Below are positions 1,969 to 22,600 of a DNA stretch of 64,000 nucleotides, in pieces. The notes under the pieces are model-generated. The model saw only the letters and a program-made list of their open reading frames with translations, made no database searches and was not told where the DNA came from. The position numbers and the translations under genes are program-made. Where the stretch lies: assembly GCA_973851085.1 (NCBI GenBank), contig OZ316775.1, positions 930,001 to 994,000 of the forward strand, written 5' to 3'. Position 1 is the first letter of the stretch. Every line of letters starts with the position of its first letter. Origin of the DNA: Ptychomitrium polyphyllum (Eukaryota).

Positions 1969-3804
1969 TCAGGCACAAGGCCAAATTAGCCAAATTTTCC
2001 AGGCTTCACTTATGATGAATATTTTGAAAAGTTGGCAAACTATTCCGCAAATTGATTTACTGAAGGAAGACTTGGAAAGTGCAGTACCAACGCTTTTGAC
2101 ATCCGCACAATACTTGCCAAACACGTCGTTTAGCACATTTGTGGAAGTAAACGACGATTTCAATAGCTGCAAGATCTGTATTGAATCCCATAAACCAACA
2201 TCCACAAACAAGCACCCTTAAACACCTTTCCATTAGAACATCGCAAAATAGTAAAGGTGAAGAGAAGCTGCATACAAATGGGGCAAGACCTATACCTCAG
2301 ATGAAACGACAGACACTGGCATAGTGTCCAAGTCGCCAACTCGTTCGCATCGAATAATATTAAGGGTTATAAGAGCTCCGATCGCCTCAGAACTTGCATG
2401 AATTTCAAGTGTGTTGGTGATCATATACTGTGTGCCTTCCTTCACATATCCTTCTCCTTTTAAGTTCTGCCAAACCCAACTTCACACGTCCAAGCTTCAA
2501 AGCCAGAAATTCCGCAATGCCTACACTTAGCTTTATAAATATGTGCATATGTGAAGAAAACGTAGGAGTTGCAATGAAGTACATACTATAGAAGGAGCTG
2601 GACTCGAAGGCAACGCAAGCTGCATGTCGGCACCCGTCGTGGACGGACGAAGGACGACCTCAAGGTTAGAAGCGGGAAATTTTTTTTTCACTGTAAGCGG
2701 TCTGATAGACGGTTTAACAGACAGCCTACTTGAAGACTTGGTAGGGATCGGAGGCTTGGAAACGCATTTGTCAGCGACACACTGCCTTCCACGCTGTTCT
2801 TTATTTGTGCGAAAACTGTCTGGCTGTTCCTGCCCAATTGGAGTTCTTTAAATTCGTCAGCTTATGGCACAGTTGCCCATCCTTGTCAGAATAAGGCAAA
2901 GCAGTGCAACAACTCTGAAATAGCGTTCTCGACCTAGCACATTTCAAAATCACAAGAAACTCATAACGCAATGTGTGCAGGCCATTGCTGATTGGAAAAC
3001 ATCAAACGACGCACAAATTATTATTCATACATGCAGATATTCACGAGCAACTTGCACTGAACAACTCTTTGTTGCTAGCTGTGCAAGACACAATTTCGCC
3101 AAAGGTCATGTATGGCATACCTGAGAGTTCGCATCACCCGGATGGCTAGCAGCACCTACGGGGCCAACATGTCCAAGCTCCACGATCTTTAACGGAGTGC
3201 TCATCATCTTTTTGTGTTTAGGACACTTGGTAGCTGGGTTTGTATTATAAAAAGAGCAAGCATTTCCACAACCATAGTAATTTGAAATCGCTGAGCTCAC
3301 TGATGACCTTGCAGAACAAGGCGAAGTTTGCACATCCAGGAGTTTGCCAGCTCCAAAAGAGATGAGTGGCTTCGGGTCAACTAAGCAATTCTTATTAGTG
3401 CTCATCTCTCTGTTGTCCAGCCTTACTACGCTCCCAAAAATGTTGGAAATGGAGCTCATGGAGAAATGCTCACCCGATTCATTTTCTCCCTTCTTAGGTC
3501 CTGGAGTGTAGGGCGTACTGGGGGGGAAAGTGGGAGCAGGTGAAAGTGGTGGCGCTATCTTGCAGTCTGGCCTGTGAATCATGGTGGCCTCCTCTAAGAG
3601 TTTTATAATGCAACCAACGGGGAGGGTGAGAAACCCCATCAGTGTATCTACAAAGTCTTTCCCGGCCTCCAAGCACAACACTTGCCTAGTTGCCTTCGAA
3701 AAGAGTAGGGTGACGGGGATGGTCGGATCCACCTTGCATTGCGGCATGCCACAGTTGAAACAAAGTTCTTCTTCCTCATCGTCTGATGGCTTTGGACTCG
3801 TCAT
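1969..3804 (-). CDS. DUF674 family protein (exons approx. 3804-3121, 2829-2587, 2466-2296, 2175-1969)
   Basis: N-terminus has IPVTLLFSKATRQVLCLEAGKDFVDTLMGFLTLPVGCIIKLL (DUF674 signature), a Cys motif CGNAC..CPKH, then GYVKEGTQYMITNTLEI and ILQLLKSSFTSTNVLNDVF. Canonical splice sites keep the frame; exon 2 and the 3' end are less certain. Confidence 0.85.
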
Positions 3805-5965
3805 CGCTACAATGAGTTGCACCACTTATTAGGGTTCACAGGCATGAAACTTCACAGCCTGGCGGAGATACCTTTCGAACAGGTGGATCTAGGATGACGT
3901 TGTATAGGAGATTTCACCAGGGCAATTGCTAACCTGATTTTTGATTAGAGTGGATGTGAGCATCTCGTTGAAGCCTCCCCAATTAAGATCATTCCAGGGA
4001 CGTGATAGCCTGCATCCAATTGCAACGATGATCAACTTACTCAGTTCAAAGAAGAAGCCAAAATGAAAATCCTAAACTCGACTGACTCAAGACTTCCTGG
4101 GCTTACCAGTGCCATGTTTTTGCTTTCCCCAACCGGCAAACTCGTTGCACCAACTCTTCCCTCTTCGGCATCTTCTGGTCTGATCAAGCATGCAACCTAT
4201 TGCCTATAACTTTACTCATAGCAGCATCGATATCTCATACAGTACCATTCATACCACGAACAACGCCACTGCGTAAAACTCCTAGGCAAGAGTATAATAC
4301 GCAACAGTTTCAGTCGTCATGGTGCATGCGGATCCTTGCCTGCATAGCCACAATTCTAACTTCCAATGCCCTTCAAGATCTGGCCGACAGTCTGGCAGAT
4401 AGTCCACTCACTGCATAAGCACCAAGGAGGTGAGGATCATGTCCAGTAAAGTAGGACTGTCAAGCGCATGACAAGATCGTATGTAAACTTCGAACTGATC
4501 AGGAGCATAATTGACAAGAAGAGGCAACTCACGTAAACAAGGACGAAACGTCTCAACTGAATCTTCATGAATCGCTTCGTAACCAGAACTTGGCTTCATC
4601 CATCTCCACTACAAGACTAGCCGTTGGTTCTTCCTCATCCACGAAAGTTCAGCTGAAGCTGTCAAAAATTTATTACTACCACGGAGGTGGTCGAAATAAA
4701 ACTGCGTATGACTATCTCACTATGAGAATTTGGAGTTTGACCTCTATCAAAAATCCATATAAAATTGATAATTATTGTGGATCTCTACAAAGTAATTTTA
4801 TAATCCTAAAGTACACATGATAGTGCATTTCCACAAACAATTTTATTGAAATCTAATGGCTTGATGCTAAGATTATAACACTTAATGAACAAATATTGCA
4901 AAAATATAATGACTAAGTTTGTAGAATGAAGTTTGAGACACCATATTTTATATAAAGGATATCCAAATAATTTGAAATATTTCATGCTACATTATATAAG
5001 AGTTTACAAGACATCTAAATAATCTTAGATGGAAAGATGCATTAAATAAGAAAATATGATTCTTGAGGTATGACCAATTCAAGCTTCAGAGAAACAATGA
5101 AGAAAAAATTAGATTATAGGCTAATATGGGGAATTGCAAGTTAACTTGCAACGAATTTAGAAGAATAACTAAGAATATCTAATAAGAATATCTTTTTGGA
5201 AGTACATATTCTTCTAATTCACCATGAAATTTTTGACTCAATCTTTTTTGAACTTTTAAAAAAAAATTGAGTCCTTACACAAATTTTAAAACATTACTGT
5301 TGGCAGATTTTTTTTCTGAGTCTTTTAAGTTACTTTTAAGTTAAGTCAACTTCTAGGGACCTTCTAGAATAGTTTCATTTTACTATACAATATGAAGATG
5401 GCCCAGCTAGGCACTTACGGGTAAAATTTGCCACCCAGGACAGTACGACAATTAAAAAATGTGATGTCACTGGAAGCATTAAGCACTTTTACTTCATGAT
5501 AAGTACAAATTGGTAATTAGCTACAGAACATTAAACCTGTGCTGTACTGGGTTGACCTTATACACCAATCTGGTTACCTGACGTATCACGTTACACAAAG
5601 ATTGATAGTTGAAGAACCCACTAAATAGAAGTAATCAAGCACTATTCACACATCTAAGGCCTAAGCTCATTACCGTAGCCATTACCTTAGCCATTACCTT
5701 AACCACGTAGCTCAAGAATGAATGTTTATTTTATTGTGAAAAAACAACGTTCATCCCTCAAAAACTAATTACTTGATTTTCGGTTTTGAGCTAAAACGAC
5801 TGGAAATGGTCCAAAATGGTTCAAAATAGCAAAATCCGGTTTTAGATAATTTATTCTATTTTTCATTTTATTGTCTTCATAATTTTCCAATTTTAATTTC
5901 CACTTTTCAGAATCATTTTTGAGCAACGATAAACTGATTTTTCACGAAGTTGCATAGCAGCAATG

Positions 5966-8900
5966 TCAGAGTGCCCACGAAGATCGCAGCATGAGGGCAG
6001 GGGTTTGTGATTGTTTATTTAGGAGATACACTAAACCAGGTTGTAGTGTAAACCCAAGCCCCATGCTGAATTTCATGAAAGCCTCCATATAGAATTGCAG
6101 GTCACATGATTCACCTGATACAAAAGCATGCCCAGCATGTGAGACATCCATGCCCTTGTCATACATCCAAGGAAAGAGAACGCCACAAGAATTCGAACGA
6201 ACCACAAAATTACCAAAAGAAGCATAAGACCTAACATCCGGGTCAGAAATGTCACTACCTGTTACCACTGGAAGTGACGATTCTGTCAGCCTTCAAAGAA
6301 TGTGGATTTCGAGAAAATTTTGATTCATCAACTAGGTGCGTTCAGAGCAGAACCTTTCAATGTAAAAGTTGAGGATCATACCTAAACCATCTCCAGCACC
6401 AAGAAAGGTATTCTCTTCGTTTGTAGCAGCACTCCATAGATCTCCCTTTGAGCTCCCCACACAGAGACCCCAGTCAACTGTTTTCCCGACTGTTTTTGTA
6501 AGGCTCACACCCCATTCAATTTCATTCTTCTTAGACTCATCAAGCCAATACCCTAGGTCGGCCTAAAACAGGACAAACGGTGGAGAAAGATGATCAATTA
6601 TGCATGTAATTTGATTTAAAACAAAATGAAATAGAACCAACCTTGAATCACTCCCATAAGGGAAGAAATTATAAAAGAGCATGAATAAGCAGCACTAACC
6701 TGGGCCCAGCCTGCTAAGCTTACATTCGCGCCTACGTCTATTTCTCCAGCTAATGCAATTGACTGCATTGTATTTCCATGAGTTTCTAGAACAGGGACAA
6801 CTTTTCGCTCAGTCTCGCCATAAGGCGTTCCCCACGAGGCATTATTAGACATTCCAGATGGAGTGTCAAATGACGTTCGAAAATCACGCAATGATGAGTT
6901 GTCCATGGATGTTTGTAAATCTTGGGGACTGCTCGTCTGCGGATTACTCGAACCTGATTTATGACTACGGCGAGTTTTGGAGAGAACCAAAGGTCCCATT
7001 TCACTCCAGTGTAAACCTCTGAAAGAAGGTAGAGGAGGGCTAGGCCAGAAGTGATTGACTGCTGAGAGAGAGAATACTGAATTCACCCATGGTTGAAACA
7101 TAAAATGTGCAAGGGTGTTCAGACAAAGAGGCCCACTATTAAGTGGTCCATCAGATAAGGATGACTCCGTGCCCCAGCCTGAAAGATACTGCGACAATGA
7201 CACAAGTGCCGTCTTTCCCCTTATAGTAGCTCCTAGAGCGGAGCCCACACAATGCTGATATATGGCAGGTCCTACCCTTGCAAATTGTGTCAATGCTTGA
7301 CCCTGTAAAAATACGATCGATGTCAGAAATACCATAGCAAAGAACTCGATTAATGAAACCTAATTCTGCAATCTCTATGGAATCTCTTTCCGCACGGCAC
7401 ATATGTTGTGTCCGCAGTATACTAACCTGTAATGGGTTTACAGTCTCCGTTATGTCACTAGCACGAGCTCCTAGGGGTGCGACCACAACATGCAAGCCAT
7501 CTGTGACTTGAGCATTGTAGACGAGCTTGGTGACTGAAATAGGTCCTCCAAGTATGCTGCCATCACTACCAGAGTGTCCAGCTGAGCATTCCGTGATCAT
7601 CACATCTCTTTCTCTGTAACCAGTCTCAAAAGTGAAGCGCACATCCATGCCGGTGTGAAGACCAGCTTGTTCAAGCGCAGCCCGAGAATATCGACTGCTC
7701 TGATCATCCAATAAGAGGAAAGCACCACCAGCACACACTTCCCCCTTAAGTCGAGTCTTTGCAGCACCTTCACCATATGAAGATTGTGCCTTTGACTTAC
7801 GCAAGCCTGTGTGAAATTCAAGCTTATCCAGGCGCTCCCTGGCTCTCATTAAGTCTAAAAAGGCCTCACGTTGTAGTCTCTTCAAAGCAGCTGTCTGCGT
7901 AGAAGGTAGCTTGTTAGCAGAAAAGACGAAAACAAATCTGCACACAATACAGAGGAACGAATATATCGTCTGATATAATATCTTATCGCTAGTAACCGCA
8001 GTGTAAGAAGACTGAGGGAAAAGTCTTAGTATGGGCAGATACACTTTACATAGCGGAAAATCCTCTCGTATTATCAGGTTCATATACATATGACACCGAA
8101 GATTAAACACCCACCACAGCACTTCGGCAATATGAAAAACGAAAAAGTCCTCACCTGTGTTATGTCAATATTAAAGGTCGTGAAGTTTAAACTAATGAAA
8201 GGGAAATAGGTTTAACAATGAGACAATGTGTGATGTTTGCAATGAGGAAGTACACAGGATCTTAGATTACGAACCTCAGAGCGCTTAGAAAAAGCCTCAT
8301 CCCCATCTTTCTGTTGAATAGATTGCGCCGCGTGTGCCGCAGCCTCTTCCCCCAACTCATCTCGCTCGTTGTCCTTTACACTAGAAGGTCCACTGGAACT
8401 GCCTTGAGAACCTGTTAATTTGAACTGTAAATAATCAAGAGCCCAATTCCAGTCCACATGGTGACAATTAACACCGGGACCCAGAGGCAGAACTGAAACT
8501 CCATCGACCAGGCCAGTTACTTTGGTTGCCACATGTTGACAGGTTACAAATCAAAGAAAGAGAAGACATACTGCAAGCATTTGATTTCCTGAGATGTGAG
8601 TTCTAGCCGCTACAAGGAATCAGAAAGCTCTGATAATTCTGTGTGGTCTTAATAATTTTGCTATCCAGCCCTTCCCCTTACCAGAGGTTTTGGAAGTCAC
8701 ATTTGCAGCTGTCCTCTCCGCAGACCCAGGTCGCTTAGTTCTTCCAAGCAGCAGATCACCAAGGGGCGCCTCTCCATCTAGTGCATCCCCTGCGGCGGAG
8801 CTCAAGGACGCCAGAACTGGTGCTCGAAAATCTTGAGACTTCATCGTCAGTGCCTCCTCATTAGTTTGCTCCTCATCTCCGCTTTCCTTCTTCTCCACCA

Positions 8901-9465
8901 CGCTACTTACAAGAGTCTCCTCACCCGATGAACCAAATCTCCCGCTTCCACTTCCTCCACTGCCACTGCTTCCACCCCACCCTTTTCCTCCATTTCCATA
9001 TCCCACTCCAGAGTCACCCCCACCCCCACTAAACCCCAAACTATCAGCTTCAACATTGTCACCGTTGTTCCAAAACGGCTGCCAAAACAGGCCACCTGCT
9101 GACGAACCCGCCACCACCGAACACGCCAAGAACTTCTCACCTTGCATGCACGATGATTCTGACTCTCCAAAACTCCCCGCAGCACACGCAACAATGCGCC
9201 CATCTAATTTTCCCGAGCTCTTCACGCCTTTCTTCAACAACAACGCCCTCCTGGAGACATTGCCCAGACATAGCTGACAAAATCCCGGCAACACGTAACC
9301 AAAATCCCCCTCATCAACATCCACAACACGCACTCTCTTACTTCGAGGCTTCTCTAAACGTTTGGACAAAGTGTTCAAATCCACAAGCTTCCCCAGGATC
9401 TCCCTCCCGCTCTTAACCTGCACTTGCAACACCGGAGTCGCTTGGTGCCACAACCCTAAACCCAT
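5966..9465 (-). CDS. Putative plastid outer-envelope beta-barrel protein related to cyanobacterial OprB/SomA-type porins (exons approx. 9465-8682, 8411-8275, ~7927-7427, 7302-6700, 6562-6382, 6114-5966; junction between 8275 and 7927 unresolved)
   Basis: Transit-peptide-like N-terminus with a poly-Gly tract; coiled coil LKRLQREAFLDLMRARERLDKLE; TRLKGEV; alternating beta-strand segments; C-terminus EAFMKFSMGLGFTLQPGLVYLL..ALMLRSSWAL. Canonical GT/AG sites in frame for most junctions. Confidence 0.75.
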
Positions 9466-10032
9466 GGCGACACTCAAATTTCCACTGCCAGGTTCACATC
9501 CATCAACAATCAATCACCGATTACGGCTCCCAAACATCCTGACTACCCGTTGGATAGCAACAACAACGCAACCACCTCGCTATCTCGAGAGCGAATTTCC
9601 TATTGCAAATTCTTCATCATCGGCGACTCTTCAACTATTGACAGACAGTGCGCACTTCATATCATGCGTAGATGATCGCTGACATTGTCGCACTGATGCT
9701 CCTTCTCAACAACACGTCTAAGTTAGGTCATCTCCAGCAGCATCCAAGCAACATTAGTGTATACAGTAAGATGATTGTATGGATTGCTGTGATTACTCCA
9801 CATTCTCACGAAGTCTGTGGATTTCTTGCAGGTCGGAGATTCTCAAGAATTCTGCAGAGTCGCGGTCATGCGACCCAAGTGTCCCATAACCGAGTCGCTG
9901 AAATGTGATGTCAGTAACAGAAGTTTTACGACAGACGCAAGACGAAGGGTTTAGAGTACAGAGTTGAGAGACTGACAGGGGAGCAGGGTTTTAGCCGGGT
10001 CAACTTTGTAAGGAAGAATTGCTGCAACTTTG

Positions 10033-11781
10033 ATGGCCTTGTGCCCAGAATTCCATAATCGAGCTCCTCTCTGGATTTGGTCTTCTCGTCCTCACTTGGG
10101 TCGCTGCGCGTCTCATCGTTGCGTTCCGGTGGTGACGACGGAACAGATGGGGGTGCCCAATACATTGTCAAATGTTGCGCAAGGTTCGCTGTTGAGCAGC
10201 TTGGCGTACTCGCGCGCGGTTGAAGCAGTGGTGACGGCAGCGAAGCGAGGGGTTGGGAAGGAGCACGGCAGCGAGTGGCGGGATGCCACAGTGCGGCTTC
10301 TGCAGTCTCGGAGCAATCCGCCTCTCGCTCTTCTGTGGGCGTTCCTTGCTTTCCAGAAGGAGAGTCTGGTCGGCGACGGAGGATCACAATGTGGGCGTTC
10401 GGGCAGTGTCGGTTCCCTCGTCTCGGGTGCACGGTCTCTTCTGCACTCGTTGAGGTTGGTGACCGCCGGGTGCTGCAGTGGCCCCACAGCCATAGCTGCA
10501 GGAGCTCCGATTGTTCAGACTGTCGTGCACGCCTCGGCTGCGTTTGCCGGCAGCGAGAAGGATGCGGGCCTCGGTCAGAAGAGGGAGGCGAAATTGTGGA
10601 AGAGCTTGCAGAAGGTCGTCCTTGAGCTCTCCGGATTCATCACGTTGTGCCACCACAAAGACGCGCCGGTGGTGGGTGGCCTCTTCAGGGCCCCGTCGGC
10701 CAACATCGGGCTGGACATCTGGCTGTCGGAGAATGCGGACTTTGCCTCTCTGCTGCCGTTTGCAACGCAGCTGAAGGTGGATGGGTTCCTGAATTCCACG
10801 GAGTCGGTCCTTCGTCTGGGGGAAGTCGTGGAGACGGCAGTGGCCCTGCTGAGGCTGGTCGCGGCAGCGGTGGAGGGGCGGTCGTCTGCGAGCGCCTCGA
10901 GGAAGGACGAGCTGGAGAAGAGGTTGAAGCACGACGCCGTCCTGTACGCGAAGTTCCTGGGCAGGTCGACCATCATCCTGGACATGGTCCTGGCCGCGCC
11001 CCTGGAGGTCGGCGGCATCCTGGCGGATTGGGAGGAGCTTGCATTGCGTGACGTGGTGGGCGAGATGGCGGTGGCGGGGGTGGCGAAGTCGGGGGTGTCG
11101 TCGGAGGAGAGAGGCGGTTTGGGTGGAGGGGAGAGTGGAGGGAGAGACGGCGTTGCATTTCTGAAGCGGGTGATGATCGCCCGGCAGCTGGCTGCGGAGT
11201 TCAGGTCCAGGAGGGAGTACCTTCGGGCATCGGACCTGCTGGCAGGTCTGCAGGGACGGGGCGCACCTTCAGAGCTGGGAGAGTGGTTGGGCGAGAGGGG
11301 CTCGTTGAGGGTGCTAATCAGCACAGCTGTGCTGCAGAAGCAGCAGGATCTGGTGGACTGGCTTGTGAATGCGGGCGAGGGTGACTTCAACGTGGTGCTG
11401 GACAAGGCAAACATAGAGCGAGCGGAGACGGACAGCGTGGAGGATGTCCCGGGTGCAAGCATGGATGCGGAAGAGGCCGAAGATGCGGGCGGACCTGTGT
11501 TCTTCATAGACACGTCGAGGAGCCAGAACAAGGATGGCGCAGAGGGTGGGTTCGATGCAGACGAAGAATTCGTGACGGCGGCTGGGAACATACAGGCCGA
11601 TACGAAGGACGACGTGCTGTTCGATAGATCCGAGCAGTTGGAGCGGAAGAGGACAAGGGGTGCAGCGAAGTCGAAAGCGGCGAAAGCAAAGCAGAGGAAG
11701 AGTGCACATGGCTGGGAAGGTGGCGAGGAGACATCCGATTCGGAGGACGATTCCGAGGAGGAGTCAAGTATGAGTGAGTAG
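10033..11781 (+). CDS. Intronless ~582 aa protein of unknown function (helical core, acidic/basic C-tail with NLS-like RKRTR); duplicate of 46061-47821
   Basis: Long GC-rich ORF; 10174-11828 is nearly identical to the reverse complement of 46014-47680. Confidence 0.7.
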   Translation: MALCPEFHNRAPLWIWSSRPHLGRCASHRCVPVVTTEQMGVPNTLSNVAQGSLLSSLAYSRAVEAVVTAAKRGVGKEHGSEWRDATVRLLQSRSNPPLALLWAFLAFQKESLVGDGGSQCGRSGSVGSLVSGARSLLHSLRLVTAGCCSGPTAIAAGAPIVQTVVHASAAFAGSEKDAGLGQKREAKLWKSLQKVVLELSGFITLCHHKDAPVVGGLFRAPSANIGLDIWLSENADFASLLPFATQLKVDGFLNSTESVLRLGEVVETAVALLRLVAAAVEGRSSASASRKDELEKRLKHDAVLYAKFLGRSTIILDMVLAAPLEVGGILADWEELALRDVVGEMAVAGVAKSGVSSEERGGLGGGESGGRDGVAFLKRVMIARQLAAEFRSRREYLRASDLLAGLQGRGAPSELGEWLGERGSLRVLISTAVLQKQQDLVDWLVNAGEGDFNVVLDKANIERAETDSVEDVPGASMDAEEAEDAGGPVFFIDTSRSQNKDGAEGGFDADEEFVTAAGNIQADTKDDVLFDRSEQLERKRTRGAAKSKAAKAKQRKSAHGWEGGEETSDSEDDSEEESSMSE

Positions 11782-12967: not shown

Positions 12968-15200
12968 CTAGTCGAAATAGCAAGTAGAAAGATCAGAAGA
13001 AAAATGACTGCGTGGTACCCACCAATTGCCATTACCATCCTTGCAAATAGTGCTCGATTCCGGTGATGGAGTAGCACACCCTCCCAAGGCTACCAGAAGT
13101 TCATGCAGATCGGGGGATTTCTCGCTCTGGCGCTTGCCAAGCATTTGTGCAACAGGGTACCACGCCCTTGTTGTCTCCGCTTTAAGAGTTCCGCTGCCAA
13201 CAGGTTCACTTTTCGCCTCAGATGCCATGCTTCGAATGAGCTCACGATTAGATTCGCGAGGCCGGGCCGAAAAAGTTAGCGATGCTTGAAGTTGCTCTCG
13301 TGTTGGCTTCACATCTTCACTGTAAACGCCATTTTCCTGTTTCACCTTGCTCCTGGTAGAAGCACCTGGTTCTTCTTTGACCTTCACCATAGCAGGAGCA
13401 CCAAGCTCTAGTTTAACCTTAGCTATCTTCGGGATAGGGTTCATGGATAAAATTTTAGGCTTGACATCGATCTCTTCGGATGTTATATCCGACTTACCAT
13501 CACATTCTTTTGCTTTGTACAACTTCGCCAGGGGTACATCATCATCTAAAGCATCGTGTTCTTCAGAAAAGGAAGCCTTCTTCCTTTTGTCCGACTTCCC
13601 CTTGACAATAGCATGACTGTTCGCCCCGCTTCGAGGGTTCCCATTGTTCTTCCCGGCACCATGAATGATATTATAGGTTTTCTCCCATCCACCACGAGTC
13701 CCAGGTACAAGATTGACGTCAACAACCCTGAAAATATGGACGAGAACCCTCCAGTCCCTGGAATTTATAATTTCGTAAATACACACATCCCCCTCTTCCA
13801 AGCGATGGTCCTTGCTAAACCCTGCCCAGCCGCCACTTAGCCCAGTGTGTTTGTCGTTCTGGATCCATACTGTTTTCGGCCACTCGAAGCCATGAATGTC
13901 CTGGAGAATAATTTCGGTTTTCTGCTTTGGCAAGGATTTCCTAGCAAATTTTTTCGGGATATTCTGCATAAAGTCATAAGAACATCAAAATCAGTGACTG
14001 TTAATGCTGTAATGAAATGAACATGACATCTAAGAAAAAAGATTTATACAAGAACGAACCGCACACAACTCTCCATCAAGTTCAACGACGCATGTGCATT
14101 GATCACTACATTTAGTGGTCATCCACAGGTGAGAACAAGCAATATTGAGGAGACTAAACTAGAGAAATTCGTTTCAAGAGTAAGGAATACAGACAGCAAT
14201 AAGAAATGCAGTACCAGCCAGAACCCACGGTATACATGAGAGGGCTTCATGACTATGGTGACACTTGGATGCTCCGTTGTGAAAGACTGGGCAGCTGCAA
14301 GTGCCCTGTCCAGCTCCGCTTGCATAACTTTTCGTCGCCGAGACTCAAACGTTGTTGTCATCGACCCAGGCGCAATGAGAGTGCCATCCCTCGTTTTTGA
14401 TGTCGGTGCTTTCTTGTGACTGGGCTTTGCCTCCACCCTCTTTATCGATCCTACAAACTTTCTTTTTACACCCTTTTTTATAGTAGAGCAAACTTCTCCG
14501 TCTCCAAATTTTCTGCCCTTGAAGTCAGAGCTGATTTTAGAGTCAGAATCCGAAGACGACTCATCTTCGCTTTGAGAATCATCATACTCACTGTCATCCG
14601 AAGACTCGGAGCCGCTATCATCCGACACAGGTTCATCTTTGACTTCTTGTTTCTTGCGTTTACCAATCGAAAGGGCTACAACAGGCGAAGGTGTCACTTC
14701 TACACCCAGTTTGTTGAACGTGTAAACGGAGAAGCAATTCTTGGAAACCAGCGAAAATAACATTTGATCACCTCGTTTTACATTGATACTAGCAACAAAG
14801 TTCTTCCAGCCACCTTCGAAGCCCATGAACTTGGCTGGGCCACCAACTTCCACCAACCACTCATTCCCATTGCCACCAAGAAGGCGAAAAGTGCCACGCA
14901 AAGTTTCACCGTGAGCTTCCACAAATTCCCTGGGAATAGGCTGCACCACAAATAGACACAATCAGTGAGAAAAAATGCACTATTTGAGGCTTATATGTAA
15001 CACACAGCAGATCCAATACAAGGTCATGGAAATCGTCTCTATATATCAGAGTAAGAATTCACCGTCCAGTTACTGGATACTTCTAAGCTCGTTAACAGGA
15101 AACAGGGTGGTCGTGTGAAGTGGGATGGTGTAGCATCAGCTCCATGTTCCTTGAAACAAGTTTGTGTACACACCGCGCAAGCTCTGAATTCGCTGTCCAT
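12968..15200 (-). CDS. B3 domain protein (REM/VRN1-like, two B3 domains); exons 15200-15063, 14940-14215, 13963-12968
   Basis: B3 motifs PIPREFVE..GNEWLVEV..GFEGGWKNFV..GDQMLFSL and VMKPSHVYRGFWL|NIPKKF..GLSGGWAGFSKDHRLEEGDVCIYE..VHIFRV; N-terminal CxxCxxxC motif; canonical splice sites. Confidence 0.9.
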
Positions 15201-17292: not shown

Positions 17293-19675
17293 AACTTGCT
17301 CTGTATTTTTACCCATGATGTTCCCACCTCCCTGTACCCTCTACTGAAGACATTTTTGAGCATGGCATGTTATTGTGAGCAACCCCCATGAATATACCTC
17401 CCTGAAGTCCAGAGAGTCAGCCCCAGGAAATCAAAAGGGTTGATTGGAGAAGAGTGAGGTTTAGGGGATATGGACAATACTGAAGTTCTTAAAAATCATT
17501 TAGTTTATGCAGAAGTCTAAAGTGATAAAGACAATATGGGTACTAGAGTAATTTTAAATGAAGAACGAGCTTTTTTTTTAAAATTTGATGTTTTTTATTA
17601 ACTCCAGTAAAATAAAGATAAATCACAAACCTTAATTACAAAAAGCTTAGTTTTAAAATAAATAAATAAATAATAAGGTTTAGAATTTAATGGATTCTAA
17701 ATCCTAGTTTGCATTGAACAAAATAAAATGGTCTTTTTTATTCCTTACAATGATTGAAGTTGGATGCATTTTTGTTATGGAGTTTTAAAAAAGAATCCAA
17801 TCATATTCTTTCTTATGCACCATCTTCATTTCCATCTATGTAGACCTTGTTTTTATTGCTATCAAATTCATTAAGTTTTTCTTTTCTAAAACTTTAGTAC
17901 AATAGTGTTACCAAATTCAATTCTTGTAAAAAGAATTAAAATCCAATAATTTAATCTTTCCACCCATATCTTAATTGAACTTTTTATATATTTCAAAAAA
18001 AAATTATATGTTGAATTAAACGCTTGAGTTGTAAGTACATATAATATGATTAGAAGTACACATATGATTAAATGTCAATCATAAAAGATTATGCAATTCA
18101 ACATAAAAAATATAAAATATATTGACTTTATAAATGCCAAGCCCTAAATTGATACACTATGCTTCAATTTAGAGACTTTTATGCAATTCAACATAAAAAA
18201 TACATATAATCTGATCCAAATTTATGACATAAGCTACAAATTTCATTCTCAAAAATGCCTTGATTCACCACTTATTTCCCAACATCCATTTATGTAGTAT
18301 CATGAACATCATGAACAGAATGTACTTCCTACCAGAAAGTACGAAGCAACACTGGTTGCCAAAATCCTAAAGCATGCAAAAAAATCAAAGACAACTGATA
18401 CAAGATAAATTTAGCAATCTCAAGGACAATTCTTGTCAAGATTTGGAACTCTAGGAACCACTAGGTCTCCAATTCCCATCATGATACATCATGCTAGATA
18501 ATCCCACGGCCAAAAAATAACAACCTCATCACAAAACCTACTGTCGTTGAGGTAGTGGCCAGATAGGTTCTGTCTTCCGGATTATTTTTTTCACAGTCCT
18601 AGCCTGGACTGTCCAGTTTGTATGTTTGAACAAATATCAGTGAACAAATAGTTTGCAGATTGCGTACCTACAGGTGTCGGTTGGCAGGGGGCGACCGGAA
18701 TCCGGAATCCAAGCTTTGGAACAGATTCTAGTGCAGAGGAAGCTACAAAGCTACAGAAACTTACAAAGTAAAGCAGAGGAATACATGCACGTTGTGTTAC
18801 GCTGTGTTACAAGCAGGAATATAGAACGATCGATCCTCCGTGTGCGACGAAGGAACTGAGAATGTGAAGCGTCTCCTGCATTTGCGGCTTTGATGCAAAT
18901 GCAGGAGCTGCAGGCAGGAATGGCGTAGTGGACCACTGAGGCGCTCTTTGATGCTTCTGCAGGGCCAGGCTGTGAACGGAGCACCGCCTTGTGGAACCAT
19001 GAAGGGAGGCACAGGAGGCATAAGAGGCTACAGTAGATGACTGAAAAGTGGAGCTGGCAGGCGGCACCTCAGCGCAGGCATTCGAGGGTCCGCACTGGGT
19101 GGGGACGCACACCAGTCAGAACGGATTGTATGTGTGACATGGCGCAGAAACAGCGGTGGTTTCTCCGGTCGCCACTTGGGCGTTGTGTCGTGTAGAAGAT
19201 AAACCTGCCTCGCTGATCTACGATCCATCCGGGGATGGACTTGAATGCGTCGTCTCCTAGCGGCGTGTTTCTTCGGGCGTTCTTGTGAAGATCGTGGAGT
19301 TTCATGGAGGATTTGTGATACTGGGTTGCTGTCATCAGCTGCGTCATCGGTATTTTTGAGGTAGGCATCGCTGTTTTGAAGTCCATGCTCTGAAGCTGCT
19401 TCGTCGATCATGTTGGGATTCAGTGATGGCGTGGGAGGCTTGCAGATTGCTCACTTGCTAACTTAAGCGGGTTTGCGTTCCATCATTGTGACGAACCTCA
19501 GAGGAATTTGCCTAAGGGTCGAGGTTTTTCGAGGATTTGGCACCGTGTTCTCGGATTGTTGCACGTGTGGGTTTAGTGATGGATGATCCCTAGTGCGAGC
19601 GACAAGGATATTCGTGGTTTTACACTCGCGGTTGTTTGAAGTTCGCGGTTCCTAGAACTTTAGAATCTTCCCACC

Positions 19676-22600
19676 ATGTCGTCGCCTATGGGCATTCCAA
19701 CTCTGACAAGGAGCGGCTCGAAGTCCGCGGCTTCGTCTCTGGCTTCGTCTTTCCCGTCTCGAGGAGGTTTTTATCGAATCCACAGCCAGCCAGAGGATCA
19801 ACAGGGCTTCTTGCGGTCGTACTCCTCCAACCGGAGGTCTCAAGATTTTGGTCATGGCGGCCAGGAGCCTCTGTTGCAGACGTCCTGGTCCTCGCAGAAG
19901 GATGGACGCTATGCGGACGACGCGGAGCGCGCCTTGCTTGGAGGATCGGAGGCCTTACCGGTGCCGCAGAAGCTCAACGTGTGGCAGGAGCTGGGGCGGC
20001 AGTGTTGGCTGGCCGGACCCATGGTAGTTGTGAACCTGCTGCAGTACTCCATTACGATTGTGTCCGTGGCGTTTGTGGGCCACTTGGGAGAATTGGAGCT
20101 TGCCAGTGCTTCCATCGCCAATTCACTTGCTGGCGTGCTTGGCTACTACGTTCTGGTAAATTCTTTTACGTGCTTTCTTCCAGATCATTTGACAGAGGGA
20201 AGGAATGATCAAGAACGGGAACAGGATGATTCACATGCTGAAAATCTCACTTGTATGGGTGTGCTTGAAGGTTGTGTAGAAATCGGCTGTGTGGCAATCT
20301 TTCGTTTGTTTTTACAATGTCCCAAATGTCGCAGCAGACAGCTTTTATTTCGCGAATGTAGTGCAGTAGAGAAGCAGAGCAAGAACTATGTAGTAAACTG
20401 TCCGATTTTATTACTTCGGTTTGAAATTTCTTGAATTTTCATAGTGTGTTTTGACATTTTGATCTCAAAAAAAGATGGCTGGATTTGAATGTGTCTACTT
20501 ACCTGCCTTTCTGTTATCTAAGATTTTAGTCTTTCTATCAGTCTAGGTTTTAGGGTTAACCACAGGTTTCTGCGGTGGTTTGATCTTATGAGCAGCTAGG
20601 CATGGGAAGTGCTCTGGAGACACTATGCGGGCAAGCGTACGGGGCAGGCTCAATGCATCATCATATGCTGGGGGTGTTTTTGCAAAGAGCGCTCATTGTG
20701 CTATATGGAGCATGCATTCCGATTTCGTTCCTGTTCATATACATGGAGCATGTTCTTCTTTGGCTGGGTCAAGAGCCTAATATCTCCGAGAAGGCGGGCG
20801 AGTATGCACTTTATCTGCTACCCAGCCTGTACGCCTATGCGCTTCTACAGCCTGTGGTCAAGTTTTTGCAGACCCAAAGTGTGGTGTTCCCAATGGTGAT
20901 TTGTTCAGCAGTGACGTTGTGCTTGCATACGGGAATTTTGTATACTCTTATTCATACGCTGGGGCTGGGGTACAAAGGGGCTGCCTTAGGAACGAGCGTG
21001 TCATTCTGGATCAATGCAATTCTTTTAGTCTCGTATGTCAGATTTTCTGGCGTCTGCAAACATACCTGGAAAGGATTTACAACGGATGCTTTTGTTGACC
21101 TGCGTGAGTTCCTGAAACTGGCAATTCCATCTTGTATCATGATCTGGTAAGTCACCTGCAGACGTGTCATTTCATTTCATACGATATGGATTTCTTTCAA
21201 CAAGTGATTATAGTAGGTTGTGGAAACCTTGGTCCGTAAGTTAGTTTCGAGAATAATTTTTTGACGAAATTTCGTAGTCATTCAATTGCAAGTGGGATGA
21301 GTTAATGTAATTGTTCTTCTTGACATGATCGCTACAGCCTTGAGTATTGGTGCTTTGAGGTTCTAGTCATTTTAGCTGGACTACTGCCGAATCCAAAACT
21401 TGAACTTGCAACCCTCTCTGTCTGGTATTTCAATCCTGCCTGATCTCTCCTTTGACCTGCCTTTAAGTCATTACTATTGTGGTTCCGATTGGTTCAAGGC
21501 AATGATATTTTAGATGTAAATGGGCAATAGTTCAATTTAAAAAAATCTTGCTAGTTAATAGCATCGGTGCAACCTACAAGAGTGTTTACATTCATTGGTT
21601 CCCGAGATTCTATGATTCTTCAGCGGAATTTTTGAGAAAATTAGTGATGGTGGTAGTGTTAACGACACTGGTGGGGGTGTTGCAGCTTGAGTACAACTTC
21701 TTTAAATTACATGATTCCTTTTGGCCTGAGCGCCGCTGCCAGGTTCTTACTTCACCTCCATATGTAGATCATTGTACTTGGTCTGTGAAATGTTGACTGC
21801 GCTTGAAGTATTGTTAAAAGGCGCAATATGTTAGGTTGCTCAAAAGCCTATCTTATCATCCGGAGTTAGCCCTCTTCCCATGTTGTATTGGTTGTTGCAT
21901 CCAAAATTTCGATCCTTTTTTCCCAAGATGAGCTGACTAATGTCATTTTAAATTTGCAGCACAAGAGTTGCAAATGAGCTTGGAGCAGGTGATGCTCCTG
22001 CGGCAAAACAAGCTGTAGTGTCGGTGGTGAGCCTCTCCGCTGTTCAAGCCCTAGTCATTTCCAGCATACTTCTGTCGCTCCGCCACAAATGGGGCTGGCT
22101 GTTCAGCAGCGATGCTGAAGTGGTGGATATGGTGGCGAAAATCATGCCTTTTATTGCTGCCATTGCCCTACTCGATGGTATCCAGGGTGTGCTTTCAGGT
22201 AACTTGTTACCTATCCATTTATTGTGGTAATAAGACGCATATCACCGAATTTGCATATCTTCCTATTGTCATGAAGTTTGTTACGTTGTGTGTTCGTAAG
22301 GAAATTTACTTCTTTTGATGTAGGTGTGGCAAGAGGATGTGGGTGGCAAGAACTTGGTGCTGTTATCAACTTGGGTGCTTTTTATGGAGTGGGAGTTCCA
22401 ATATCTGTCATTCTCGCCTTTGTGTTCGACTTCGCTGGTCGAGTATGTCCCTCTTGAACTATTTTCGCTTCAAATTGTTGGCCCTTTTCTGTATCAGCCT
22501 AACAACCATTACATCAGCATTCGAGTGAATTTAATCATTGCGTTTTTATTATGAATGAAGTCGGTGAAAGTATTGTCAACAATTGGTTGAACAGTCTTAA

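What the first reader, a model, noticed from the sequence alone, without database searches (positions are those of the whole stretch)
5966..7930. Nuclear plant gene that looks like a cyanobacterial SLH/OprB-type (SomA/Slr1841-like) outer-membrane porin
Seen: the spliced product has, in order, LKRLQREAFLDLMRARERLDKLE, TRLKGEV, DVRFTFETGYRERDVMITECSAG, VTKLVYNAQVTDGLHVVV, NPL..ALTQFARVGPAIYQHCVGSALG and a C-terminus EAFMKF..FTLQPGLVYL..ALMLRSSWAL. Recalled knowledge: cyanobacterial SLH-porins have a collinear series of roughly L.RL..EF..EL..L..RVD.LE, TTKL.GEV, RVRLNF.TSFTG.D.L.TRL.AG, L.Y.FP, NP..A.SRF...NPIY..G.GAG and EAFY.....I.ITPG....LRTTF.F. Inference: six collinear matches suggest an endosymbiont-derived porin retained as a plastid outer-envelope channel. 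This family is not among the commonly listed plastid channels (OEP16/21/24/37/40, Toc75/OEP80, TGD4), so it may be an unrecognised solute or ion pore.
Basis: partly seen in the sequence, partly recalled or inferred. Interest (0 to 1): 0.9.

Follow-up and report, generated by a model that had tools for sequence, protein, structure and literature searches.

The report
Cyanobacterial porin kept in plant chloroplasts
This moss nuclear gene encodes a relative of the main outer-membrane pore of cyanobacteria, kept from green algae to Arabidopsis but without its cell-wall anchor, and it is predicted to form a 16-stranded barrel that likely lets small ions or solutes through the chloroplast's outer envelope, although a 2020 preprint says plants lost this family and a 2011 paper noted the likeness only briefly.

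Summary
The gene is real: six exons on the minus strand (9465-5966), 773 aa, from a moss. Residues 276-773 align collinearly with cyanobacterial SLH-OprB (SomA/SomB, Slr1841-type) porins (profile-profile 99.2%, E 2e-19; reversed control 0.5%). NCBIfam por_somb hits 30 of 31 family members, all below its cut-off. AlphaFold gives 16 strands in the same order as a cyanobacterial porin model, behind a coiled coil. The SLH domain is gone. Algae and non-seed plants mostly carry a long extension with a glycine run, as in Toc75's envelope-sorting signal; seed plants have lost it. The family spans chlorophytes, streptophyte algae and land plants, and includes Arabidopsis At1g11320 (UP1, labelled 'GDSL esterase/lipase' in UniRef). 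It is not wholly new: Imai 2011 noted At1g11320-SomB similarity in one short section, and Bouchnak 2019 placed UP1-GFP in the chloroplast envelope. Yet Kojima and Okumura 2020 say plants lack Slr1841 homologues, and no function was found in print. Best reading: an endosymbiont-derived outer-envelope pore for small solutes or ions. Channel activity, outer versus inner membrane and trimer formation are untested.

The parts
8682..9465 (-). Exon 1 (aa 1-261): basic, transit-peptide-like start, moderately hydrophobic stretch and glycine run; predicted disordered
   Evidence: homologue low pLDDT for residues 1-221; transit peptide is inferred from composition, no predictor was run
9073..9129 (-). 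Moderately hydrophobic segment, aa 113-131 (Kyte-Doolittle 19-mer 1.05), just before the glycine run
8923..9033 (-). Glycine-rich run, aa 145-181 (9 Gly in 15); resembles the Toc75 envelope-sorting polyGly
   Evidence: Endow 2016 introduction
8275..8411 (-). Exon 2: helix (aa ~276-296) that aligns with the helix following the SLH domain in cyanobacterial porins
7427..7894 (-). Exon 3: coiled-coil helix (aa ~306-338), strands 1-5 and first half of loop 3; best match to por_somb
6700..7302 (-). Exon 4: rest of loop 3, strands 6-11 and the long loop 5
6982..7047 (-). Trp/Pro-rich motif at the start of loop 5 (aa ~549-570), near-invariant from streptophyte algae to ferns, absent from cyanobacteria, eroded in angiosperms
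6382..6562 (-). Exon 5: strands 12-13 and loop 7
5966..6114 (-). Exon 6: strands 14-16 and stop codon

Best explanation
This is a spliced moss nuclear gene, orthologous to Arabidopsis At1g11320, whose C-terminal 500 residues are homologous to cyanobacterial SLH-OprB porins and are predicted to fold as a coiled coil plus a 16-stranded barrel that likely sits in the plastid outer envelope as a narrow pore for small ions or solutes. Shown here: the gene, the homology, the orthology, the loss of SLH. From papers: the Arabidopsis orthologue is in the chloroplast envelope; the cyanobacterial relatives pass inorganic ions and iron and exclude larger organics. Inferred: the gene came from the plastid ancestor; in algae and non-seed plants the extension (transit-peptide-like start, hydrophobic stretch, glycine run) sends the precursor in through TOC and stops it in the intermembrane space, as for Toc75, from where the barrel is inserted into the outer envelope with the coiled coil facing inward; loop 3 folds into the lumen and narrows it; the barrel trimerises through the coiled coil like OmpM1. 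Seed plants shortened the extension to 30-45 residues and must use a transit-peptide-free route, like most other envelope barrels.
For: Sequence: hhalign 99.2% (E 2.4e-19, 412 columns) and 99.6% (E 1.2e-24, 386 columns), collinear from the post-SLH helix to the last strands; por_somb hits 10 of 10 and 30 of 31 members and 8 of 8 further members including At1g11320 at a weak E 0.035 (one of the 8 is the cyanobacterial-type porin P0214); the plant profile finds 85 of 85 cyanobacterial porins and 0 of 18 other ORFs. Structure: AlphaFold of the Ceratodon orthologue gives two helices then 16 strands, a cyanobacterial porin model gives the same series, both models rank the same 13 16-stranded porins on top, Z 19-21 and 20-24 (OprB 4gf4 Z 20.8, rmsd 3.0, 250 aligned; OmpM1 8bym Z 21.1, rmsd 3.8, 274 aligned); Foldseek agrees; ESM Atlas lists cyanobacterial OprB/SLH clusters right after the streptophyte ones. 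Strands alternate hydrophobic and polar faces, with conserved polar residues on the inner face. Origin: 13 of 13 and 4 of 4 plasmid records hit by two algal members among 72,556 are cyanobacterial; 1 of 131 newly listed hits of the 1.84-billion search scores as a bacterial SLH porin; the gene tree follows the plant species tree. Location: UP1-GFP in the envelope, found in envelope fractions only. Glycine run of 8 or more in 15 in 25 of 29 sequences examined against 3 of 37 long open frames of the window, one being this exon.
Against: No channel measurement exists in anything I read. Scores stay far below the family cut-offs (27-44 bits against 100 for por_somb; no Pfam OprB hit). The model is of a 63%-identical homologue, mean pLDDT 58, pTM 0.52, with loop 5 (about 110 residues) unresolved; that loop could plug the pore. 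Bouchnak's table files UP1 under 'Inner Envelope Membrane' and gives no transit peptide; TAIR text there also lists mitochondrion. UP1 was seen with only 7 spectra, so it is scarce, unlike the dominant cyanobacterial porins. The angiosperm branch is long, so function may have drifted. The tree has no non-cyanobacterial outgroup and is the quick search without bootstrap. No transit-peptide predictor was available. Glycine runs are common in plant proteins and some homologues have them in the core too.
Confidence: 0.68

Rival explanations
1. It is mainly a tether: the barrel sits in the outer envelope and the coiled-coil stalk reaches inward to the inner envelope (or to plastid peptidoglycan where that survives), keeping the ancestral membrane-anchoring job by a new anchor; the pore is secondary or vestigial.
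For: The coiled coil is the best-conserved part from cyanobacteria to Arabidopsis. Cyanobacterial members tie the outer membrane to the wall and OmpM1, a top fold match, is an attachment porin. In 12 of 15 algal-type rows outside the streptophytes listed (P0140-P0195; 5 named or clustered as chlorophytes, the rest unnamed) the glycine run is followed by a hydrophobic helix of 1.56-2.29, mostly flanked by basic residues, like an inner-envelope stop-transfer anchor. Such an anchor, or a tight inner contact, would fit UP1 being filed with the inner envelope.
Against: SLH is lost in every eukaryotic member tested. The window's protein has no segment above 1.05 and seed plants have no extension at all. 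The hydrophobic helix may be a cleaved sorting signal. Inner-face polar residues and loop 3 are conserved, as expected of a working pore. The protein is scarce.
Confidence: 0.17
2. It is an outer-envelope barrel repurposed for a specific cargo or partner (a lipid, a cell-wall precursor, or a cytosolic protein docking on loop 5) rather than a diffusion pore.
For: A near-invariant Trp/Pro-rich motif in loop 5 is new to streptophytes and, by strand order, faces the cytosol. UP1 leaves the envelope fraction during cold acclimation in one proteome. By the consensus lines, two arginines of strands 2 and 3 in cyanobacteria align with Asp and Glu in plants (window D391, E409), so the lumen chemistry has changed.
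Against: No partner or cargo is known; the loop-5 motif is eroded in angiosperms and absent in chlorophytes; 16-stranded porin folds in the match list are mostly diffusion channels.
Confidence: 0.11
3. The gene came by horizontal transfer from a non-cyanobacterial OprB/OmpM-type porin, not from the plastid ancestor.
For: No red algal or glaucophyte member was named among the 30 clusters I looked up; the fold is as close to proteobacterial and Negativicute porins as any; no outgroup in the tree.
Against: All plasmid hits are cyanobacterial although the collection is not restricted to them; the only NCBIfam match is the cyanobacterial subfamily; Atlas neighbours are mostly Cyanobacteriota.
Confidence: 0.03
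4. It is a GDSL esterase/lipase, as the UniRef label of the Arabidopsis orthologue says.
For: The label itself, repeated in a cold-acclimation proteome.
Against: No Pfam family hits At1g11320 at E 1 or any window exon; the predicted fold is a beta-barrel.
Confidence: 0.01

Closest known systems
Cyanobacterial SLH-OprB porins (SomA/SomB, Slr1841, Slr1908, Slr0042; NCBIfam NF033921 por_somb; TCDB 1.B.23; Pfam PF00395 + PF04966)
   Same: Collinear post-SLH helix, coiled coil, 16 strands and loop 3; about 22-24% identity in the profile alignments.
   Different: No SLH domain; no bacterial signal peptide but a 300-residue extension with a glycine run; plant-specific helix in loop 1 and motif in loop 5; nuclear and spliced; scores below family cut-offs; apparently scarce rather than dominant.
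Arabidopsis At1g11320 / Q9SXB7 / UP1
   Same: Orthologue: 38% identity over 147 aa with window exon 3 (E 3e-26), two further blocks with the Ceratodon protein, same land-plant clade (SH-aLRT 99). SomB likeness noted by Imai 2011; envelope GFP signal by Bouchnak 2019.
   Different: 424 aa; extension cut to 35 residues with no glycine run; loop 5 shortened; long branch.
Pseudomonas OprB (PDB 4gey/4gf4) and Veillonella OmpM1 (8bym)
   Same: 16-stranded barrel; Z about 21 to the plant model; OmpM1 also has a stalk before the barrel (paper title and my recall).
   Different: No sequence match in the solved-structure search; OmpM1 keeps SLH (recalled); OprB lacks the coiled coil (recalled).
Toc75 (targeting only)
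   Same: Long N-terminal extension with hydrophobic stretch then glycine run in the window's protein.
   Different: Omp85 family with POTRA domains; no homology claimed; Omp85 barrels score lower (Z 13-15).
OEP21/24/37/40
   Same: Plastid outer-envelope beta-barrel solute channels (works-like comparison).
   Different: A 2025 preprint found no cyanobacterial sequence homologue for these; this family has one over its whole barrel.

Membership tests
Cyanobacterial SLH-OprB porin (por_somb / TCDB 1.B.23) | N-terminal SLH domain | tested here: not met
   SLH-only profile: best 2.1 bits among 92 plant proteins against a median of 132 bits in 126 cyanobacterial ORFs; best 0.8 bits among the further eukaryote-like hits; no Pfam SLH hit
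Cyanobacterial SLH-OprB porin (por_somb / TCDB 1.B.23) | Score above the curated cut-off of NF033921 (100 bits) or PF04966 (22.9 bits) | tested here: not met
   44 bits for the Ceratodon protein, 27.4 for window exon 3; no PF04966 hit
Cyanobacterial SLH-OprB porin (por_somb / TCDB 1.B.23) | Coiled-coil helix between anchor and barrel | tested here: met
   aligned with high confidence; helix 251-285 in the model
Cyanobacterial SLH-OprB porin (por_somb / TCDB 1.B.23) | 16-stranded C-terminal barrel, homologous along its length | tested here: met
   16 strands in both models, matched in order by the profile alignment; fold search; predicted on a homologue, not solved
Cyanobacterial SLH-OprB porin (por_somb / TCDB 1.B.23) | Trimer | not testable with these tools
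   three full barrels exceed the size limit of the complex tool; see Tried and rejected
Cyanobacterial SLH-OprB porin (por_somb / TCDB 1.B.23) | Passes inorganic ions or iron, excludes larger organics | not testable with these tools
   needs bilayer or liposome assay; property of Slr1841/Slr1908 as reported
At1g11320/UP1 orthologous group | Reciprocal homology and tree position matching the species tree | tested here: met
   profile hit E 8.7e-60 to the cluster holding Q9SXB7; land-plant clade 99 (quick tree)
Plastid outer-envelope channel (OEP-type, works-like) | Located in the outer envelope membrane | not testable with these tools
   envelope shown for UP1; filed as inner envelope in the same paper's table; nothing for the moss protein
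Toc75-type bipartite envelope sorting signal | Transit peptide, hydrophobic domain, polyGly, then a Plsp1 cleavage site | tested here: inconclusive
   hydrophobic stretch then glycine run present; transit peptide not predicted by any tool; no cleavage site identified in the moss protein
GDSL esterase/lipase | Pfam lipase profile and alpha/beta hydrolase-type fold | tested here: not met
   no Pfam hit for At1g11320 or window exons; barrel fold

The most novel reading that the evidence does not exclude
Green plants never lost the cyanobacterial major porin: this family is its direct heir, the missing outer-envelope route for iron and other inorganic ions, and it swapped the SLH-peptidoglycan anchor for an inner-envelope anchor (a membrane helix in chlorophytes, an amphipathic helix in seed plants), so that one trimeric protein both conducts ions and staples the two envelope membranes together.
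Probability: 0.2. Interest if true: 0.88.

Novelty: new variant of a known kind. Interest (0 to 1): 0.64.

Why it matters
Whether any plastid solute channel descends from a cyanobacterial porin is an open question: a 2025 preprint could not trace OEP21/24/37/40 to cyanobacteria by sequence, and a 2020 preprint builds an argument on Slr1841-type porins being absent from plants. This family is a full-length counter-example kept across green plants, with an Arabidopsis gene already shown in the envelope but labelled a lipase or unknown. It names a single Arabidopsis gene (At1g11320) and two Physcomitrium genes (LOC112281224, LOC112280501) for testing how ions and metals cross the outer envelope, and offers a second natural case of a Toc75-like glycine sorting signal, present in algae and ferns and lost in seed plants.

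Tried and rejected
No genome is held for the window, so copy number in this moss is unknown. Pfam gave no porin family for any plant member. Sequence search of solved structures gave nothing significant. Two word-based protein searches missed angiosperm and bacterial relatives; the exhaustive profile search found them. An early idea that the family is confined to lineages with plastid peptidoglycan was dropped when angiosperm and chlorophyte members appeared. First model of the last exon (acceptor 6282) was replaced. Homotrimer prediction on a truncated homologue (3 x residues 218-500) returned no verdict. The plant profile found matches in only 35 of 301 cyanobacterial genomes at E 0.001, a sensitivity limit, since only up to three candidates a genome were scored. 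The metagenome scan gave 4 loci, all plant-like. Hydrophobic-moment scan upstream of the coiled coil had no control and gave a weak value for the window's protein (0.41), so the amphipathic-helix idea for seed plants stays a lead. The careful tree did not finish; the quick tree is reported. A second Atlas search, for At1g11320, did not complete. Look-ups of earlier scan findings gave nothing on this family. Paper searches for OprB/SomB with plastid-envelope terms found no study of the family; At1g11320 gave 5 papers, Q9SXB7 one. The library lacks most subscription journals, and bioRxiv supplements are closed.

Full report
Observation. The six motifs named in the finding are on the minus strand in the stated order. 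They belong to a six-exon gene running from ATG 9465 to the stop at 5968-5966, with five GT-AG introns. The last acceptor was set at 6114 from the homologue alignment, giving 773 aa. Closest relatives are from mosses (Ceratodon, Physcomitrium; 62-64% identity overall), and neighbours are ordinary plant genes (DUF674, two B3 domains, MATE), so this is moss nuclear DNA, not a bacterial contig. Genomic-derived homologues break or retain sequence at the same intron positions (P0001, P0006; L082, L084). No RNA was available to confirm junctions.

Homology. Pfam is silent, but NCBIfam por_somb, the cyanobacterial SomB/iron-uptake porin model, hits exon 3 alone at E 1.3e-6, 10 of 10 members of the first alignment and 30 of 31 of the second, always below its 100-bit cut-off. 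I collected cyanobacterial porins (the two from the seed locus carry Pfam SLH and OprB). The plant profile found 85 of 85 of them and 0 of 18 other ORFs; the cyanobacterial profile found 31 of 32 plant proteins, the spliced model at 32 bits, while reversed proteins scored at most -0.3. Profile-profile alignment gave 99.2% over 412 columns, window residues 276-773 against the stretch from the helix after SLH to the last strand; the reversed control gave 0.5%. An independent pair of alignments gave 99.6%.

Structure. The spliced protein could not be handed to the folding tool, so the Ceratodon orthologue was folded with 31 rows: two helices (222-244, 251-285) and 16 strands; strands mostly score pLDDT 78-93, while the first 221 residues and loop 5 are unresolved (mean 58, pTM 0.52). 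A cyanobacterial porin folded the same way gives the same series, including two short helices in loop 3. Both models put the same 13 16-stranded porins at the top of a 48,161-chain search (Z 19-21 and 20-24; next class 17 or less), among them OprB and OmpM1; rows within 1 Z are tied, so structure does not choose between them. Foldseek agrees. The ESM Atlas lists cyanobacterial OprB clusters directly after the streptophyte clusters, by features and by structure. Strands show alternating hydrophobic and polar faces with conserved inner residues.

What changed. SLH is gone: best 2.1 bits among 92 plant proteins against a median of 132 in cyanobacteria. In its place is an extension of about 300 residues. 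A glycine run (8 or more in 15) occurs in 25 of 29 sequences examined; the misses are a Ginkgo model with no extension, a truncated Sphagnum model, one moss and one fern protein. The control in this window is 3 of 37 long frames, one being this exon. In the window's protein a moderately hydrophobic stretch (113-131) precedes the run (145-181), the order described for the Toc75 sorting signal (Endow 2016, introduction and passages read). In most chlorophyte-type members the run is followed by a strongly hydrophobic helix. Seed-plant members have extensions of 5-90 residues with no run (9 of 9 listed). A Trp/Pro-rich motif in loop 5 is near-invariant in streptophyte algae, bryophytes and ferns. 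Consensus lines suggest two arginines of strands 2 and 3 became Asp and Glu (the Glu is kept in Arabidopsis); no column-by-column count was made, so a shift in selectivity is only a lead.

Distribution and origin. The exhaustive profile search gave 253 proteins at E 0.001, 150 listed. I named 30 clusters in all: Cymbomonas, Tetraselmis, Apatococcus, Mesostigma, Chlorokybus, Chara, Spirogloea, mosses, Selaginella, Pteridium, Ginkgo, Welwitschia, Amborella, monocots and Arabidopsis; several stayed unnamed; none was red algal or glaucophyte, but the other clusters and ranks 151-253 were not seen. One of 131 newly listed hits is a bacterial SLH porin. Two algal members hit 13 and 4 plasmid records among 72,556, all cyanobacterial. 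A quick maximum-likelihood tree of 41 eukaryotic and 24 cyanobacterial rows, chosen by hand from 254 proteins and about 126 porin ORFs, follows the plant species tree, puts the window's protein with mosses (100) and with At1g11320 in a land-plant clade (99), and separates cyanobacteria on one branch (100); it has no other bacterial outgroup, long algal branches and no bootstrap. Endosymbiotic origin is therefore strongly indicated but not formally tested.

What is in print. I recalled At1g11320 as a likely orthologue; searches confirm it (Q9SXB7, 424 aa, UniRef label 'GDSL esterase/lipase'; no Pfam hit). Imai et al. 2011 (PMC3045335; passages and section 15 read, supplements searched without a hit, one PDF unreadable) report that HHomp finds cyanobacterial SomB at 100% and suggest a chloroplast barrel, calling the result not completely clear. 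Bouchnak et al. 2019 (PMC6601204; passages and supplementary rows) show UP1-GFP in the envelope, and file it as inner envelope, 'no similarity to characterized protein'. PMC13263057 (passages) uses UP1 as an envelope marker. bioRxiv 813725 (passage) treats it as a lipase that leaves the envelope in cold. Kojima and Okumura (bioRxiv 2020.03.24.006684; passages) state that Slr1841 homologues are not conserved in extant plants and describe them as inorganic-ion channels tied to the wall by SLH. PMC8707739 (passages) links Slr1908 to iron uptake and membrane stability. PMC4827864 (passages) lists the family only from bacteria. bioRxiv 2025.06.18.660430 (first quarter and passages) does not mention the family and leaves cyanobacterial ancestry of OEPs open. 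Six keyword searches found no functional study; subscription journals are largely outside the library, so a later description may exist.

Mechanism and verdict. The most likely reading (0.68) is an endosymbiont-derived, SLH-less porin of the plastid outer envelope that passes small ions or solutes through a loop-3 constriction, sorted in non-seed plants by a Toc75-like signal. A tether between the envelope membranes (0.17) and a specialised carrier or docking site (0.11) remain open and are not exclusive. It works like a cyanobacterial SLH porin by prediction, but is not a member by the SLH and cut-off criteria; it is a new variant of a known kind whose Arabidopsis member was flagged once and then left. 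Interest 0.64: the homology is solid, contradicts a published statement and makes an open question testable, but the core likeness was noted in 2011.

Noticed in passing
window 6115-6282 (-): An upstream AG at 6283 would give an in-frame last exon 56 codons longer; homologues favour the 6114 acceptor, but alternative splicing is possible.
   Followed up: partly
window 10012-11781 (+): A 589-codon GC-rich open frame with no Pfam hit lies head-to-head with the porin gene, about 550 bases from its start; possible shared promoter.
   Followed up: partly
window 6850-6930 (-), loop 5: Moss homologues carry a short Ser/Met/Asp/Arg-rich unit in loop 5 in varying copy number, making the loop longer in Ceratodon.
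   Followed up: no
window 3106-3825, 12968-14961, 19664-20434: Ordinary neighbours: DUF674, two B3 DNA-binding domains, a MATE transporter.
   Followed up: partly
P0096, P0231, P0091: Public gene models fuse family members to unrelated parts (a reverse-transcriptase/RNase H piece in Chara, a lectin receptor kinase in Arabidopsis arenosa, a 1293-aa Selaginella model); probably annotation merges.
   Followed up: no
P0028, P0030, P0097, P0152: Several algal members show a hydrophobic stretch ending in Ala-x-Ala, like a type I signal peptidase site, near the glycine run (read by eye).
   Followed up: no
P0017/P0026, P0051/P0065, P0008/P0088: Independent duplications in ferns, Physcomitrium and Sphagnum.
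   Followed up: partly
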